DNA of 64,000 nt, from the NCBI GenBank assembly GCA_963666835.2, contig CAXXGO010000001.1, positions 192,001 through 256,000 of the forward strand, written 5' to 3'. The position numbers and the translations under genes are program-made. Positions within the stretch are counted from its first letter, which is position 1; each line of letters opens with the position of its first letter. Of this stretch, positions 56,809 through 63,190 are shown piece by piece. Origin of the DNA: Phycisphaerae bacterium (GTDB taxonomy: Bacteria; Planctomycetota; Phycisphaerae; UBA1845). A model generated the notes under the pieces. The model was not told the DNA's origin. It was given only the letters and a program-made list of their open reading frames with translations, and did not search any database.

Positions 56809-57807
56809 TCACGGCATAAGCCGGATCACGTCGATTCCGTGGGGAATCGCAATACCGAGATTCGATCGGTGAGCTTCCGCCAAATAACCCAAATTAGCGG
56901 GCGCGGACGCGATCATCGGGAGCGAACGCCGCTTCCGTACATCGTTCAGCAACGCCAGGCCAACTGAGTCGATGGCCACGGGATCCGCAGAGACCAAAAG
57001 AGCGCCTTCGTCGCTGATTGTCTCCACCGACGCCTCCGGACCGCCTGCATACACAACGCGGAGGGCATCCACGATGCACAAGCGGAGCCGCGTCCGGATC
57101 GGAGGCGCGGACACTATGTCAGGAATGAACGGGCTGCACCTATTTCCGTGATACCGCGCCGGGTGCTTAACCAAACCGTGCGACAAGTTCTTAAGAGCGC
57201 ACGTTATTCCTGCGATATTGTGAGTTTTCAAGTAAGGTACATCGATCAGCGCGGAAACCTGCCCGAGCACCGCCGCGAATTGGTCCGCCCCGCTGCCGAA
57301 ATCAGTAACGGTTGTAGAGAAACCGCCGACGGCGGCGGTGGTCGAGTGCTTCGCGGTTGTCTCAGGTGGGGCCTCAATGAGGACGATTCGCTTACTAGCC
57401 CAACCCGCCGCTACCAAAGACTCGACAATCGCCCCCGCAATCGCATCCGTGGTAGAGATAACTTCCTGCGCGGAGCGGTTGAACTTGATCCCGATGACAT
57501 CGTCCGGTTTTAGTACTCTCTTCCACGCCAGGGAGGCATCCGCCACGTCGGGAACAAGCCCGGCCACGGCCTTGTCGAGCATCTCGCGCAACAGGACGCG
57601 ATGCACTACAGGTCCGTCTACCACGTACGGGGATTGCACGTGAATGACTCTCGAATTCGGCACTCCCGGAGGCATCAGGAGTTCAGAGCTCGGTTCCGCC
57701 GCCCGGACGCGCCCTAGGACTGACAGCCCGGCAGCGGCCGTGATCTCGAGGAACTTCCTCCGCGACAGCTCCCCGTCAGGGTCTGAATCGGTTCTTCGGT
57801 CGGACAT
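56809..57807 (-). CDS. Tat-exported DUF362 domain protein
   Basis: SRRKFL twin-arginine signal; VIGIKFN, PYLKTH, ALKNLSHG, DPVAIDS. Confidence 0.88.
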   Translation of the reverse strand: MSDRRTDSDPDGELSRRKFLEITAAAGLSVLGRVRAAEPSSELLMPPGVPNSRVIHVQSPYVVDGPVVHRVLLREMLDKAVAGLVPDVADASLAWKRVLKPDDVIGIKFNRSAQEVISTTDAIAGAIVESLVAAGWASKRIVLIEAPPETTAKHSTTAAVGGFSTTVTDFGSGADQFAAVLGQVSALIDVPYLKTHNIAGITCALKNLSHGLVKHPARYHGNRCSPFIPDIVSAPPIRTRLRLCIVDALRVVYAGGPEASVETISDEGALLVSADPVAIDSVGLALLNDVRKRRSLPMIASAPANLGYLAEAHRSNLGIAIPHGIDVIRLMP

Positions 57808-57936: not shown

Positions 57937-58515
57937 CTACCAGCGAGGTGTCAGGATCGGCTTGCCGACCTCGAAGATCGATTGCGTCTTGAGCAGGGTG
58001 AGTTCCTCGGGGAACGCGTGAAAGGCATGCACATGAAACTCGTGATCACGGGCGTCGAAGTCAATGAACGTGAACGGGGCCAGCCCTTCGTAGCTCCACT
58101 CCGCGAACGGAACATAGAGCCCCCGGTTTTGCGCATAATGCACATAGTCGCGGTGCGTGGCGGGGAATAGTTGAGGCGTCATCCGCTCCACTTGTGTGGA
58201 GAGGATGTACTTCAGGTCATCGCTAAACGACTGGGAGTGATCCCGCTCTCCTCGGAACCTAAACGACGTAGCCAAGCCCGTCTTGGGCAACATATCCGTG
58301 TTTTCGGTTATCAGCTCGGTCATCACCTGATCCCCGGTCTGCACCGTGACCACGTGAGTCAGACCAACGACCCAGATCTCCGCATGATAGCGAGACTGCT
58401 CGATCCGCTTCACCCTCTGAATATGAAACAACTCCGGGTGAATCGCTCGCTGGTAGAGGCAGAAATGTAGGTCGTCGACGTGTTGCTGCTGCGGTTTTGT
58501 CTGTCCTTGTTCCAC
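57937..58515 (-). CDS. DUF2617-like protein
   Basis: LYQRAIHPELF, HAFPEELTLLKTQSIFE resemble the family as recalled; GAGG + GTG start. Confidence 0.75.
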   Translation of the reverse strand: MEQGQTKPQQQHVDDLHFCLYQRAIHPELFHIQRVKRIEQSRYHAEIWVVGLTHVVTVQTGDQVMTELITENTDMLPKTGLATSFRFRGERDHSQSFSDDLKYILSTQVERMTPQLFPATHRDYVHYAQNRGLYVPFAEWSYEGLAPFTFIDFDARDHEFHVHAFHAFPEELTLLKTQSIFEVGKPILTPRW

Positions 58516-58809
58516 GAAGCATCCTCAAACGAGAGAGAGCCCTAGCCAAAGCCATCTTCAGAATTATACGGTCGGTCAATAGTAAATCCATGAATTTATC
58601 CTGCAAAGGCAACTAATTCCCACCATCCTCCGGTTGAAGTTGCAGTTCTGTTACAATCGCAAGACCAGCATAATACTCCGGATTTCGAGACATGCATCGA
58701 CTAAGGGTGTATTTTTAGGGCTGAAGATTGGCAAGTTGCCGGACTGCCTGCGGCTGCCCGTCGGTTCGGTTTGTTCCAATGGCAGGTTCCATCTACAATG
58801 CCCCTTGTT

Positions 58810-59259
58810 ATGACCGGTGAACGACCAGGCATTCTGTTCATAGTGCTCCTCCTCTCGGCGTTGGTTATGCCCGACTCCGGCCTGAGGTTGGTTTACGAGC
58901 CGATGACGGATGCCGCGGTGCGGCAGAAAATCCCTGGCGACGATCTGCCAGATAGGACCCCGCCCGGTGATAAGGAGCAAGAGGATGGCGAGGAGAAGCC
59001 CAATCCGCTTGGCCAGATTGCCCCGCAGCCGGCCCCGTTGGAGCAGTTTCAGCGGTCCGTGCGTATCTCACCCGCCTTCAAGACCGTCGTTCGTCCGGTT
59101 CGTCGGCATGCCTTTAGGGTCTTGTGGGCGGTTCCCGGGCCCACGCGCATTGATCGCGTGGTTACCGAATCGCGGTGCGACACAGTGTCGTTCACGGCCG
59201 TCGCTACGAGCATCCGCTCTCATGCACCACCCCTGCTTGCTTCGATCCTGTATTGCTGA
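58810..59259 (+). CDS. secDF leader ORF; candidate translation-arrest (secretion monitor) peptide; start uncertain
   Basis: Hydrophobic N-terminus GILFIVLLLSALVM, Pro/charged spacer, C-terminal IRSHAPP nine sense codons before the end; 115 bp upstream of secDF. Confidence 0.65.
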   Translation: MTGERPGILFIVLLLSALVMPDSGLRLVYEPMTDAAVRQKIPGDDLPDRTPPGDKEQEDGEEKPNPLGQIAPQPAPLEQFQRSVRISPAFKTVVRPVRRHAFRVLWAVPGPTRIDRVVTESRCDTVSFTAVATSIRSHAPPLLASILYC

Positions 59260-59261
59260 TC

Positions 59262-59288
59262 GCCGCAGCGCAAGAGCGCTGGGCTTTT
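59262..59288 (+). promoter_or_regulatory. Hairpin plus U4 right after the leader ORF (possible attenuator)
   Basis: GCC-G-CAGCGC-AAGA-GCGCTG-GGC-TTTT. Confidence 0.4.
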
Positions 59289-59374
59289 GATGGGATTGCA
59301 GGGGGCGCTCCCACTAGAAACCGACATACAACCACGAACTAAGGCGGCATGCCGCCTCAAAGGAGATACAACTT

Positions 59375-62300
59375 ATGCATGATCCGAACCGGATGATGAA
59401 GTGGCTTCTGGTCATCGGCCTCGTCGTGTTATCACTGGTGATCCTCTATCCGCCCAGTCAGAAGCTCAAGGGCGGAATCGATCTCGTCGGAGGAACCAGT
59501 CTCATGTTTGAGATCGATACGACGGGGTTGGAGAAGGCGGGCCAGCGCGGTCTTTCCTCAAGAGTGATGGATATCTTGAAGAACCGGGTTGACCCTAAAG
59601 GCCAATTGAACCTCGAATGGCGACCGGCCGGCAACACCCGACTGGAAATTCGCATGCCGCGTCCGCCGAAGGCGGCTTTGGAGCGTCGCGCAGCTTACAA
59701 CGCCGCGGTCGACCGACTGAAAGCAAGAAACCTCTCTCGGTTTGAGGTCGAGTCGGCGTTGAATGCGCCGCCGGCCGACCGGCCCAATGTCCTGGCAGGA
59801 TTGGTCCGGAACGCGCCCGAGCGAACGCCGCTGTTCGAGACGCTGGTTGCGGCCTTCGATGAGTACCAAGCGGCTCAGGGCTCTGATGACCTGGCAGTCG
59901 CGGAAGCGGCGGGGGCGGCGTATGAAGAAGCTATGGCCGCGGTGCTTGCCACCTCGATGCCCATCAACCGGCTGACGGACGTGCTGGCCTTGCCGCAGGG
60001 CGACAAGCGCAGAGAAGAGATCGACAAGCTCCGCGACGAGTTCCGTTCCTGCGATGCCGGCGAGATGGGCCAGGAAAACGGCAAGCTTTTGACCAAGGCC
60101 GTATACGCCTATGACGCGTGGGCGCAGGATAAGGCCGATCTCGAAGATCCATCGGACCTGAAGCGACTCATCCGCGGCGCCGGCGTGTTGGAGTTCAGGA
60201 TTCTAGCGGAGCGTGACGCCGCCAGCCCGACGCATACGATTGGCCCGAATGCGCAGGAGATCAGCAAGTACACCGAGCAGCTTGCCAAGTATGGAGCCCG
60301 TCCTCGGGCGGGCGACGTTTTCGAGTGGTTCCCGATTGAGAACGTAGTTCGTTTCCTGCACGCCGATGACCTGGCTTCGGTTGATGAGATTAAGGACCTG
60401 CCGGGTCGCCCGGTTGTGGAGGAATACGCCGGGCGCTATTACGTGCTGGCACACTCGGGCTCTCAGTATGGTCTGCTGCGTTCGTCCGGGAAGGGCGAAG
60501 GCAAGTGGAAGCTGCGGTACGCACGCCCGGATCGGGATCCGTTGACCGGAGAGAATGCGGTCATTTTCCAGTTGGATCCGCGGGGCGGGCAGATGTTCGG
60601 CAACCTCACCGGTCCGAATGTGGGGCGGCAACTGTGCATTTTTCTCGACGGCACGGCCATGTCGCACGCCAACATCCGGACTCGAATCACCGATCGGTGC
60701 CAGATTAGTGGCGGCTTTACGTTCGAGCGCATGCAGGAACTGGTGAAGACCCTGGAAGCGGGTTCGCTGCCCGCCCGGTTGAAAGAGACTCCTCTGTCCG
60801 AGAAGACCGTAGGGCCGAGCCTGGGTGAGACCAACCGGCGACACGGCGTCCAAGCCGCGGTTCTGGGTGGCATCGCAGTGGCAGTCTTTGTGTTGCTCTA
60901 CTACGGGCTTGCTGCCGGGGGCATGGCGGATGTTGCCTTGGCGTTGAACCTGCTGTTCGTACTCAGTGCGATGGCGTTGATGCAGGCGACCTTCACGCTA
61001 CCGGGTATTGCGGCGTTGATCTTGACCGTGGGTATGGCAATCGATGCGAACGTCCTGATCTTCGAGCGAATTCGCGAGGAACGAGACCGCGGTATCGTTT
61101 TCAAAAAAGCGCTGAATACGGGTTACGACAAGGCCTTCTCGACCATCATGGACGCCAACCTGACCACGTTGATCACCTGTGTGATTCTCGGGTTCGTCGG
61201 CAGTGAGGAAGTCAAGGGCTTTGCCATCGTGCTCGGCATCGGCATTGTCACCAGTATGTTCACGGCGCTGTTCGTGACTCGTTTGGTGTTCAACACCGGG
61301 ATTGCGCAGGGAGTGCTCAAGGACTTCTCGATGCGCCGCATCATTAGCCGGCCGTCAATCGACTGGCTGTCGTTGCGGAAGACATTCTGGCCGGTTTCGT
61401 TGATTGCGGTCGTGCTGGGCATGGGGATTTTCGTCACTATGAGTTCGGTGGATCCCGAGGCGGTCTACGACATTGAGTTCCTCGGCGGCACCAGTGTGCA
61501 GATCGATTTCAAACCGGGCGTGGAGATGACGGACGAGCAAGCCCACGATATCGTCGCGTCCAATCATGAGGATTCGGCGGGAGCGTGGCTCAGGCAGGCA
61601 GCCGATCGCCTGGAAGAAGCCGAGGCGTCCATTGGGGAGACCCCCGGGGAATTCACCTTGACGGCTGCCGGATTGACCGGAGAGCAGACCGGCGTGCTGA
61701 TGCGGGCGACTATCGAGGATCTCGTGGAGCGCAACGGCATTTACGCGACCGGTGGCGTGGCGACGTTTGTAGGCAAGTCCGGTGAACTCACTTTGGAGAA
61801 GTTCAAGGACAAGATCGTGGTCGCGGCCGAGGCGGCGCGGGAGGCGGCGAACCGCCTGCGCGGCGCGCGGGTGCAGAGCGTCGGGGAGGCGGAGCCGGAT
61901 ACCGAGGTCGGCCCGTCCTACGAAGTCGTCACCGTCGAGACCAACACGGCTCTGGTGCAGGCGGCCCTCCTGGCGGTGCTGGGAGATCGCCTGGTTGTCC
62001 AGCGGGCTCTGAACTTCGCGACGGTTGTCGACGACAACCTGACGAGGGAGCCTTTCTTCGTTGTCGAAGAGGCGGACCATTATCTCTCCGACGTGATCGG
62101 GGGCGACGCTAACTTCGACATCCGCCGGTTCCGCGGCGGGGTTGCGATCGAAGTCGTCCTGGACGAACGGGAGGAGCCGGTAACCGTGGCCGAGCTGGAA
62201 ACCCGCCTACGCGAGATCGGGCTCCAGCCGGAGTTCGAGCAATACCGCACGCGCGATTCATCCGTGTTCCCGGCCGGGGAAGTTGTGACCCGAAAGGGCG

Positions 62301-63190
62301 GCGAGGACTTCTACAAGCACTTTGCGGTGTTAGCGGTTGACGAGACTCTTCTCTACGAGGACGACGCTGCCCAATGGACCGATGGACTGGCGACGAAGCA
62401 GCTCGAACAAGTGGAAGCAGCGTTGGGTAGCGAGAAATCGCTATCGAAGGTCGTGAAATTCGCCCCGCAGATTGCCGGGCAGACAAAGAACCGAGCGATC
62501 TTCGCAGTAGTTCTGGCCTTGGGTGCGATCGTCTCGTACCTGTGGCTGCGGTTCGGAACGAAGGAATACGGCTTGGCCGCCATCGTGGCTCTGGTGCATG
62601 ACGTTGGAATCACGCTGGGGCTGGTCACCGTGGGCCACTTCGTATACGCGAGCTTCATCGGGAAGGCGCTGGCCATCACCGATTTCAAGATCGACTTGCC
62701 GATGATCGCAGCGATTCTGACGGTCATTGGATACAGCCTCAACGATACGATCGTCGTGTTCGACCGGATCAGGGAGAATCGCGGTCGGATGGGCTCGCTG
62801 ACTCCGGCGCTAATCAACGACAGCCTCAATCAAACCCTGTCGAGGACGTTGCTGACGTCGATCACGACCTTCCTGGTCGTGATCATTCTCTATATCTTCG
62901 GGGGTAAGGGCGTACATGGGTTCAGCTTCGCCTTGCTCATCGGAGTTGTAGTCGGAACATACAGCTCGCTGGGGATCGCGACCCCGCTGCTGTACCGCCC
63001 GGTGTTGCTCCGGGCGGTGGTGGCCGTAATCGCCGCGAGCGTGCTGATCGGCATCGTTGTTGTCGAGACGGATGACATGACGGCACGGTTGGTGTTGACG
63101 GCTATCGTGGCGGTGGGCGCTATCGCCTATCTAATCCGAAACGCGGCCACAAATAAGTACGCGAACCCGCGTTCTGCGGGGCGCGGCTAG
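59375..63190 (+). CDS. secDF: Fused protein translocase subunit SecDF with large periplasmic insertions
   Basis: [69 protein letters not shown]. Confidence 0.97.
   Translation: [1271 protein letters not shown]

What the first reader, a model, noticed from the sequence alone, without database searches (positions are those of the whole stretch)
58810..59377. Candidate secretion-monitoring ribosome-arrest peptide (IRSHAPP) upstream of secDF
Seen: a co-oriented ~149-aa ORF with a signal-like hydrophobic N-terminus, a spacer of over 100 residues, and HAPP (59221-59232) near the C-terminus. The 115-bp gap to secDF has a hairpin+U4 (59262-59288), a second hairpin AGGCGG-CATG-CCGCCT next to the AAGGAG Shine-Dalgarno, and short tracts (TGTAT at 59249, CTTTTGA at 59284) complementary to the SD region. 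Known: SecM (secA), MifM (yidC), VemP and ApdA/ApdP (secDF) share this layout, and several stall at RAPP-like motifs. Inference: this is a Phycisphaerae monitor with His in place of Arg that couples secDF expression to translocation force.
Basis: partly seen in the sequence, partly recalled or inferred. Interest (0 to 1): 0.85.

Follow-up and report, generated by a model that had tools for sequence, protein, structure and literature searches.

The report
HAPP arrest-peptide leader of secDF
A small export-signal gene just ahead of the protein-export gene secDF ends in a ribosome-stalling-type motif (His-Ala-Pro-Pro) that relatives across this bacterial order keep; it looks like a new member of a published family of secretion-sensing peptides, but stalling is untested and how it would switch on secDF is unclear.

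Summary
The ORF is real: 149 aa (58810-59259), hydrophobic N-terminus, H138-A-P-P141, 115 nt before the only secDF found in the genome. A matching ORF ending in X-[AG]-P-P (one R-P-P-P) precedes secDF in 49 of 53 genomes of this order. The rest of the class has it in 1 of 62, and yajC usually sits there instead. Codons vary synonymously. A -10 hexamer lies 7-11 nt before the ATG in 33 of 49, so the gene is nearly leaderless.

HAPP is not new. It is a defining motif of the RQH arrest family (Fujiwara 2024), and a HAPP member and a Planctomycetota member were tested there. Their secDF list could not be read.

What differs: 48 of 49 lack the Arg that is irreplaceable in ApdA/ApdP. The proposed Shine-Dalgarno (SD) switch fails: the anti-SD tracts are at chance level, and masking the stall site does not open the ribosome-binding site (RBS) here or across 50 loci.

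Side finding outside the window: the same order has a second leaderless signal-bearing ORF before secA ending G-G-L-Y-G-P-stop (60 of 201 genomes). I did not find that motif in print. Arrest is untested for both.

The parts
58771..58776 (+). weak -35-like hexamer TTGTTC, 17 nt before the -10 box
   Evidence: sequence; 3 of 6 consensus; below the scan threshold; inference
58794..58799 (+). -10-like hexamer TACAAT, 10 nt before the ATG; implies a leaderless or near-leaderless transcript and picks ATG 58810 as the start
   Evidence: same arrangement in 33 of 49 order loci vs 1 of 98 off-frame controls; start site not mapped
58810..59259 (+). 149-aa leader ORF, candidate RQH-family arrest peptide
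   Evidence: no Pfam match
58831..58869 (+). hydrophobic segment, residues 8-20 (signal peptide or signal anchor; type not determined)
   Evidence: KD 3.35; N-terminal peak exceeds rest of protein in 40 of 40 relatives with a promoter-defined start
59221..59232 (+). H138-A139-P140-P141; predicted stall with P140 in the P-site and P141 in the A-site
   Evidence: P-P invariant in 49 of 49, A/G in 48, all four Pro codons used; register from PMC10987492 toeprints
59230..59304 (+). long hairpin starting at the predicted A-site codon; local to this genome
   Evidence: -34.2 kcal/mol, z -2.67, chosen post hoc; no such signal on average in 49 loci
59262..59292 (+). inner terminator-like hairpin plus U4
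   Evidence: terminator-like sites in 8 of 49 gaps vs 3 of 33 yajC-secDF control gaps: not conserved
59308..59311 (+). CUCC, can pair with the SD or with 59292-59295
   Evidence: no net opening of the SD on masking
59342..59357 (+). 6-bp hairpin just 5' of the SD; does not cover it
   Evidence: mild excess structure 50-80 nt before the ATG across loci (mean z -0.3 to -0.7)
59360..59365 (+). Shine-Dalgarno AAGGAG of secDF
   Evidence: sequence
59375..63190 (+). fused secDF, 1271 aa; the only secDF found in the 92% complete genome; not preceded by yajC
   Evidence: tgt-yajC lies on contig C6
57937..58515 (-). divergent DUF2617 gene, conserved neighbour
   Evidence: within the fetched flank in 24 of 53 order loci, 0 of 62 others

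Best explanation
A secretion-monitoring ribosome-arrest peptide of the RQH (RAPP-like) kind that feeds back on the cell's secDF. (1) Shown by conservation: a promoter directly in front of the ATG makes a nearly leaderless mRNA carrying the leader ORF, and secDF is probably on the same transcript. (2) Inferred: the N-terminal hydrophobic segment sends the nascent chain to SecYEG; the ~120-residue unconserved spacer lets it engage while the ribosome is still on the motif. [quoted passage not shown] Because position 1 is His/Gln/Asn/Leu/Cys/Thr/Ile rather than Arg, the stall is probably weaker than ApdA/ApdP and leans on upstream residues (R or Q at -2 in 30 of 49). (4) Inferred, about 0.7 overall: pulling by Sec/SecDF releases the stall, and a long stall raises secDF output. 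The output step is the weak link. My first choice is refolding of the gap mRNA while it is being made, which equilibrium folding misses (about 0.35 of all outcomes). Transcriptional polarity is the main alternative (first rival).
For: Motif at the C-terminus in 49 of 53 order genomes in 10 of 11 families, against 1.5% background and 1 of 62 other class genomes; 11 of 12 named loci checked agree (several are the same species as handle loci). Synonymous codon variation shows selection on the peptide. The A/G exchange at position 2 (32 A, 16 G, 1 P) is the substitution that ApdA/ApdP tolerate (PMC12992588 section 7). Hydrophobic N-terminus in 40 of 40. Spacer about 100-160 residues, in the range given for SecM and VemP (PMC10987492). 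Almost no other conserved column, as for published RQH members. HAPP and QAPP members stalled in vitro and needed the His or Gln. Strict -10 box in only 1 of 49 gaps.
Against: No experiment on this peptide. Arg is irreplaceable by any of 19 residues in ApcA, ApdA and ApdP. The one tested HAPP member stalled E. coli ribosomes poorly in vitro and had a low in vivo index in B. subtilis; the authors suspect EF-P rescue. This genome has two EF-P-family genes. Masking the stall site does not lower the cost of opening the RBS: window 2.7 vs 2.9 kcal/mol; 50 loci mean 7.7 vs 8.0; more than 1 kcal easier in 5, harder in 10. The RBS region is less structured than shuffles (mean z about +0.5). Gaps are 75-426 nt (median 175), mostly out of a ribosome's reach. 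One family member (G157) keeps the promoter but lacks the ORF.
Confidence: 0.7

Rival explanations
1. Same arrest peptide, but the output is transcriptional. The first ribosome on the leaderless mRNA travels with RNA polymerase. When stalled it covers the C-rich motif codons and nearby RNA, blocks Rho loading, and lets transcription run into secDF (TnaC-like; TnaC recalled, not from a call). This replaces step 4 of the best explanation and keeps steps 1-3.
For: Leaderless layout at both the secDF and secA leaders, while the genome shows no general -10/ATG peak at that spacing. Long gaps with no SD switch. Rho is present. The 60 nt after the stop are more pyrimidine-rich than after long ORFs of this genome: 0.54 for secDF leaders, 0.60 for secA leaders, 0.49 control.
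Against: The C-over-G skew in the secDF gaps is near zero beyond the first 15 nt. The skew at the motif follows from Pro codons. yajC-secDF gaps in the class are long too (median 90 nt, up to 284). The control is one genome and kin are not independent. An intrinsic terminator is not conserved (8 of 49 vs 3 of 33), and in this window its position would give the opposite logic.
Confidence: 0.25
2. The peptide pauses the ribosome but does not set the secDF level. The pause tethers the mRNA at the translocon so SecDF is made next to SecYEG, or it shields the mRNA from decay.
For: No RNA switch found. The relaxed first residue suggests a mild pause. This is the sole secDF rather than an inducible second copy.
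Against: The one RQH-secDF pair tested showed arrest-dependent induction (PMC10987492). SecDF is a membrane protein and would reach the translocon anyway (established knowledge).
Confidence: 0.17
3. An ordinary small exported protein whose X-[AG]-P-P tail serves another purpose, or an EF-P-rescued di-proline with no programmed arrest.
For: [quoted passage not shown]
Against: Nothing but the signal and the tail is conserved. The profile finds one copy in this genome, at secDF. The motif lies 1-12 residues from the stop in all 49, partly by my selection cut-off.
Confidence: 0.12

Closest known systems
RQH family, uDF groups (Fujiwara et al. 2024, PMC10987492); closest tested members uDF_RQH_Lachnospirales (HAPP) and uDF_RQH_WSZJ01 (Planctomycetota, RAPP)
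   Same: Small unannotated ORF upstream of secDF, N-terminal localisation signal, long unconserved spacer, C-terminal HAPP/HGPP/QAPP, shared within one order.
   Different: A Phycisphaerae order not named for secDF in the text I read (the secDF list was unreadable). Position 1 takes eight residues, including N, L, C, T and I, which are outside the published query list. Near-leaderless promoter. No SD-masking stem found, unlike uDF_RQH_Enterobacterales.
ApdA / ApdP (Sakiyama 2021 PMC7897499; Morici 2024 PMC10951233; Fujiwara 2025 PMC12992588)
   Same: Upstream of secDF, signal plus spacer, [AG]-P-P core with the same A/G tolerance.
   Different: Their Arg stacks on 23S nucleotide 2504 and cannot be replaced; 48 of 49 here lack it. 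They precede a presumed second secDF; this is the only secDF found.
uA_LPPP (Phycisphaerales, UBA1161, WQYP01; PMC10987492)
   Same: Same phylum and largely the same class; Arg-free, Pro-Pro-based arrest; signal-bearing leader of a Sec gene.
   Different: Upstream of secA with L-P-P-P. This genome's secA leader ends G-G-L-Y-G-P-stop instead.
SecM, VemP, MifM
   Same: General layout and proposed feedback logic.
   Different: No sequence relation shown. Their SD-sequestering stem has no predicted counterpart here.

Membership tests
RQH arrest-peptide family | small (<300 aa) unannotated ORF co-oriented directly upstream of secA, secDF or yidC | tested here: met
   149 aa, no Pfam hit, 115 nt before secDF
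RQH arrest-peptide family | N-terminal signal or TM segment | tested here: met
   hydropathy only; no SignalP or TMHMM available, cleavage and topology unknown
RQH arrest-peptide family | RAPP-like C-terminal motif shared by more than two ORFs of one order | tested here: met
   HAPP 22, HGPP 6, QAPP 5, QGPP 3, LAPP 3, others 10, of 49
RQH arrest-peptide family | spacer over 30 residues between signal and motif | tested here: met
   118 residues
RQH arrest-peptide family | motif-dependent stall with the third residue in the P-site | not testable with these tools
   needs toeprinting or a peptidyl-tRNA assay
Monitoring substrates (SecM/VemP/MifM mechanism) | stem that hides the downstream SD and is broken by the stalled ribosome | tested here: not met
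   equilibrium folding with masks shows no opening in the window or in 50 loci; kinetic switches not modelled
Monitoring substrates (SecM/VemP/MifM mechanism) | arrest released by translocation force | not testable with these tools
   experiment needed
Monitoring substrates (SecM/VemP/MifM mechanism) | co-transcription with the downstream gene | tested here: inconclusive
   -10 box before the leader in 33 of 49 and in 1 of 49 gaps; no RNA data
ApdA/ApdP proper | Arg at motif position 1; Actinobacteriota or Alphaproteobacteria | tested here: not met
   His here; Arg in 1 of 49; Phycisphaerae

The most novel reading that the evidence does not exclude
This order independently built a matched pair of leaderless Sec monitors. 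One is an Arg-free X-[AG]-P-P elongation-arrest peptide that replaced yajC in front of the only secDF. The other is an undescribed R-[ILV]-G-G-L-Y-G-P-stop termination-arrest peptide in front of secA. Both control their genes at the level of transcription (lead ribosome coupled to RNA polymerase, Rho-type polarity) rather than by unmasking an SD, which no Sec monitor in the papers I read does.
Probability: 0.2. Interest if true: 0.75.

Novelty: new member of a known kind. Interest (0 to 1): 0.5.

Why it matters
It extends Sec feedback by arrest peptides to a whole Phycisphaerae order and supplies 49 natural variants in which the supposedly irreplaceable Arg is gone. That set tests directly what the first residue contributes at the peptidyl-transferase centre and how stall strength is tuned; the same genome has candidate R[AG]PP leaders elsewhere, so Arg is probably usable by its ribosome. 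The missing SD switch and the leaderless promoter make it a test case for how most Sec/YidC arrest peptides control their genes, which the LudP preprint says is unproven for most candidates. The secA G-G-L-Y-G-P-stop leader is a ready candidate for a new arrest motif.

Tried and rejected
Masked partition-function folding over five window sizes and 20 mask positions: no consistent opening; none across 50 secDF loci or 13 secA loci (mean 0.3 kcal/mol). Conserved hairpin at the stall site: mean z about -0.1. Conserved intrinsic terminator: 8 of 49 vs 3 of 33. Strong rut-like C skew in the secDF gap: absent beyond 15 nt. Origin of the leader from YajC, or kinship with the secA leader: no profile match. 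Profile search of 150 other phylum genomes: two marginal hits (E 2.5e-4 and 5.6e-4), not followed up; only 26 candidates per genome were scored. Consensus promoter scan found nothing at 9 of 12. ESM Atlas: recognition 1978, below the reliable level; hits are hypothetical proteins. No RNA holder listed. Longer starts (TTG 58771, ATG 58798) were rejected because the -10 box overlaps or follows them. Other frames over the locus were not examined for conservation beyond the three-frame listing. No structure or complex prediction was run, because the spacer is unconserved and would not decide the question. Whether Fujiwara 2024 already lists this order could not be settled: Supplementary Data 3, the supplementary figures and the source data were too large to read, and searches of the readable files and the preprint did not give the 11 uDF groups.
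Full report
OBSERVATION. From ATG 58810 the ORF is 149 aa: residues 8-19 are strongly hydrophobic (KD 3.35), H138-A139-P140-P141 is at 59221-59232, and eight residues follow before TGA. The next gene starts 115 nt later, with an AAGGAG SD, and is a fused 1271-aa secDF. It is the only secDF found in this 92% complete genome: the two best matches are its two halves, and the six weaker ones lie in 1000-1090-aa frames that I take for RND transporters without testing. The leader has no Pfam match. A contig from a second study spans the stretch with 23 differences, 22 of them in secDF and none in 58498-59682; run X1 may be this DNA's source.

CONSERVATION. I located secDF in relatives and examined upstream DNA for 120 loci: 60 supplied by those searches and 60 fetched by my choice from the remaining listed matches. 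Four duplicate loci and one without a tblastn hit (L117) were dropped, leaving 115 genomes. Groups are taxonomic. In the window's order, 49 of 53 genomes (10 of 11 families) have a co-oriented ORF of at least 100 codons with X-[AG]-P-P (48) or R-P-P-P (1) within 12 residues of its stop. The four misses are two family-f4 genomes with yajC there, one contig end, and G157, which keeps the promoter but lacks the ORF. In other orders of the class the count is 1 of 62 (RAPP, G082); yajC stands directly upstream in 53 of them. In this genome tgt-yajC lies on another contig. Background for X[AG]PP in the last 16 residues is 821 of 54,882 ORFs, and 28 for H[AG]PP. Motif counts of 49: HAPP 22, HGPP 6, QAPP 5, QGPP 3, LAPP 3, NAPP 2, CGPP 2, TGPP 2, and NGPP, RPPP, IGPP, LGPP one each. 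All four Pro codons and both His codons are used, so selection is on the peptide. Named relatives with 57-70% identical SecDF are mostly titled Phycisphaerae, and 11 of the 12 checked carry the motif (L130 lacked upstream DNA; several repeat handle genomes). No tool named the order; UBA1845 is my recalled guess.

PROMOTER AND START. A TA[TC]A[AG]T hexamer lies 7-11 nt before an in-frame ATG in 33 of 49 loci (40 with a looser set), against 1 of 98 off-frame controls and 1 of 49 gaps; the pattern was chosen after seeing the data. Here it is TACAAT at 58794-58799, which supports ATG 58810. The transcript should start 0-4 nt before the ATG (inference from sigma-70 spacing). Genome-wide there is no peak at that spacing (24-35 at 7-10 nt, range 15-45 over 0-24 nt). 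In all 40 proteins with a promoter-defined start (127-186 aa) the N-terminal hydropathy peak exceeds the rest. Their alignment has only M1 and the two prolines invariant.

THE RNA SWITCH IS NOT SUPPORTED. One fold pairs CUCC (59308-11) with the SD, and a long hairpin starts at the predicted A-site codon (59230-59304, z -2.67, post hoc). But masking a stalled ribosome did not consistently raise SD accessibility over five window sizes. Across 50 loci (49 plus G082) the cost of opening the RBS was 7.7 unmasked and 8.0 masked, easier by over 1 kcal/mol in 5 and harder in 10. The RBS region is less structured than shuffles, and no hairpin is conserved at the stall site. Terminator-like sites occur in 8 of 49 gaps and 3 of 33 control gaps. 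Gaps run 75-426 nt, but yajC-secDF gaps are long as well (median 90). secDF starts were picked by a heuristic and some in other orders are wrong, which affects only controls. Equilibrium folding cannot exclude a kinetic switch. Hints for transcriptional control are weak: Rho is present, and the 60 nt after the stop are 0.54 pyrimidine against 0.49 after long ORFs of this genome (kin not independent).

MECHANISM. Shown: gene, motif conservation, hydrophobic N-terminus, spacer, promoter position. Inferred: Sec targeting, stalling at Pro140/Pro141, release by pulling, and feedback on secDF. I put the stall at about 0.85 and the full monitor model at 0.7. Position 2 varies exactly as ApdA/ApdP tolerate (A or G, rarely P), which argues for the same geometry at the peptidyl-transferase centre. 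Position 1 does not: Arg is irreplaceable in ApcA, ApdA and ApdP, where it stacks on nucleotide 2504. The tested HAPP peptide needed its His on B. subtilis ribosomes in vitro but arrested weakly in vivo, possibly through EF-P, and this genome has two EF-P-family genes. A weaker, tuned stall is therefore likely; R or Q two residues before the motif (17 and 13 of 49) may help. The genome also holds candidate R[AG]PP leaders before other genes (not checked in relatives), so the lack of Arg is probably not forced by its ribosome.

COMPARISON. Fujiwara 2024 (PMC10987492) defined the RQH family to include HAPP, HGPP and QAPP leaders of secDF and tested uDF_RQH_Lachnospirales (HAPP) and uDF_RQH_WSZJ01 (RAPP); WSZJ01 is a Planctomycetota order. 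All four bioinformatic criteria are met here, so this is an RQH member by the paper's own definition. It works like ApdA/ApdP but is not one. It does not meet the SD-masking feature of SecM, VemP and MifM by the tests I could run. Whether this order is among the 11 published secDF groups is open, because Supplementary Data 3 and the supplementary figures could not be read; I put it at roughly one in three. Literature searches.

SIDE FINDING, OUTSIDE THE WINDOW. This genome's secA has its own leader at G000:C1, ending at 1657191: TATAAT, 9 nt, ATG, 112 aa, hydrophobic N-terminus, ending R-I-G-G-L-Y-G-P-stop. The exact codon pattern occurs in 60 of 201 order genomes (f1 36 of 57, f2 21 of 39, f4 2 of 2, plus this genome; none in eight other families); the reversed control pattern hits 9 genomes, and 2 of the 61 matches end in TGG rather than a stop. 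Of 30 loci inspected, 29 have secA directly downstream (one contig too short) and 20 have the -10 box. Elsewhere in the phylum 2 of 300 genomes match, and the three of their four loci printed are not before secA. The motif is absent from the paper's secA list as held (cells over 400 characters are cut), and a full-text search gave one unrelated insect-silk paper. It resembles the published NSP-stop and NAP-stop termination arrests in ending Pro-stop. The 60 nt after its stop are 0.60 pyrimidine. It shows no profile similarity to the secDF leader. Earlier AI notes report other new stop-type leaders in other phyla, so such motifs are not rare.

PAPERS SEEN. PMC10987492: abstract, passages, sections 4 and 16, parts 1-3 of 4 of section 5, supplement 7 whole, term searches in the 12 readable supplements. 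Its preprint 10.1101/2023.09.02.556018: one passage. PMC12992588: abstract, passages, sections 7 and 9. PMC10951233, PMC7897499, PMC12856214 and 10.64898/2026.10.26.761930 (LudP): passages. TnaC and sigma-70 spacing are recalled.

VERDICT. Real and order-wide; a new member of a known kind, with an unusual Arg-free motif set, a near-leaderless promoter and no detectable SD switch. Interest 0.5, helped by the secA partner.

Noticed in passing
G000:C1:1656853-1657191 (+), outside the window; L137:1082-1420: Leaderless 112-aa signal-bearing ORF before secA ending R-I-G-G-L-Y-G-P-stop. Exact pattern in 60 of 201 order genomes; secA downstream in 29 of 30 loci inspected. Candidate new termination-arrest motif, not found in the searches run.
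   Followed up: partly
G000:C6 1044073-1044753, 908489-908815, 2268551-2269159, 759714-760430, 2329371-2329727 (+), 2006552-2006800 (-): Six more signal-bearing ORFs ending in RAPP or RGPP, mostly before secreted-looking proteins and one before a ferrochelatase-like N-terminus (recalled resemblance).
   Followed up: no
L032 (G157), about 255 nt before secDF: This relative keeps the TATAAT box and the divergent DUF2617 neighbour but has no leader ORF: a natural deletion. It retains the secA leader.
   Followed up: partly
L025, L026 (family f4): The only order members with yajC directly before secDF and no HAPP leader there, yet they have the secA G-G-L-Y-G-P-stop pattern. DNA upstream of their yajC operon was not checked.
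   Followed up: partly
L087 (G082, another order of the class): Lone RAPP leader with a hydrophobic N-terminus 194 nt before secDF.
   Followed up: no
window 59375-63190: SecDF is long (1271 aa; open frames mostly about 1100-1450 aa across the class), with large periplasmic stretches outside the Pfam matches.
   Followed up: no
window 58498-59682: A second strain shows no difference over 1185 nt (promoter, leader, gap, start of secDF) but 22 in the next 860 nt; purifying selection or a recombination tract.
   Followed up: no
G000:C6:58442-58603 and C1:2069912-2070073; C1:1169120-1169338 and C1:1093025-1093249: Two EF-P-family genes and two Rho RNA-binding-domain matches in this genome.
   Followed up: no
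window 56809-57807 (-) and 57937-58515 (-): Tat-signal-like DUF362 protein and DUF2617 protein upstream on the other strand; DUF2617 synteny is kept in 24 of 53 order loci.
   Followed up: partly
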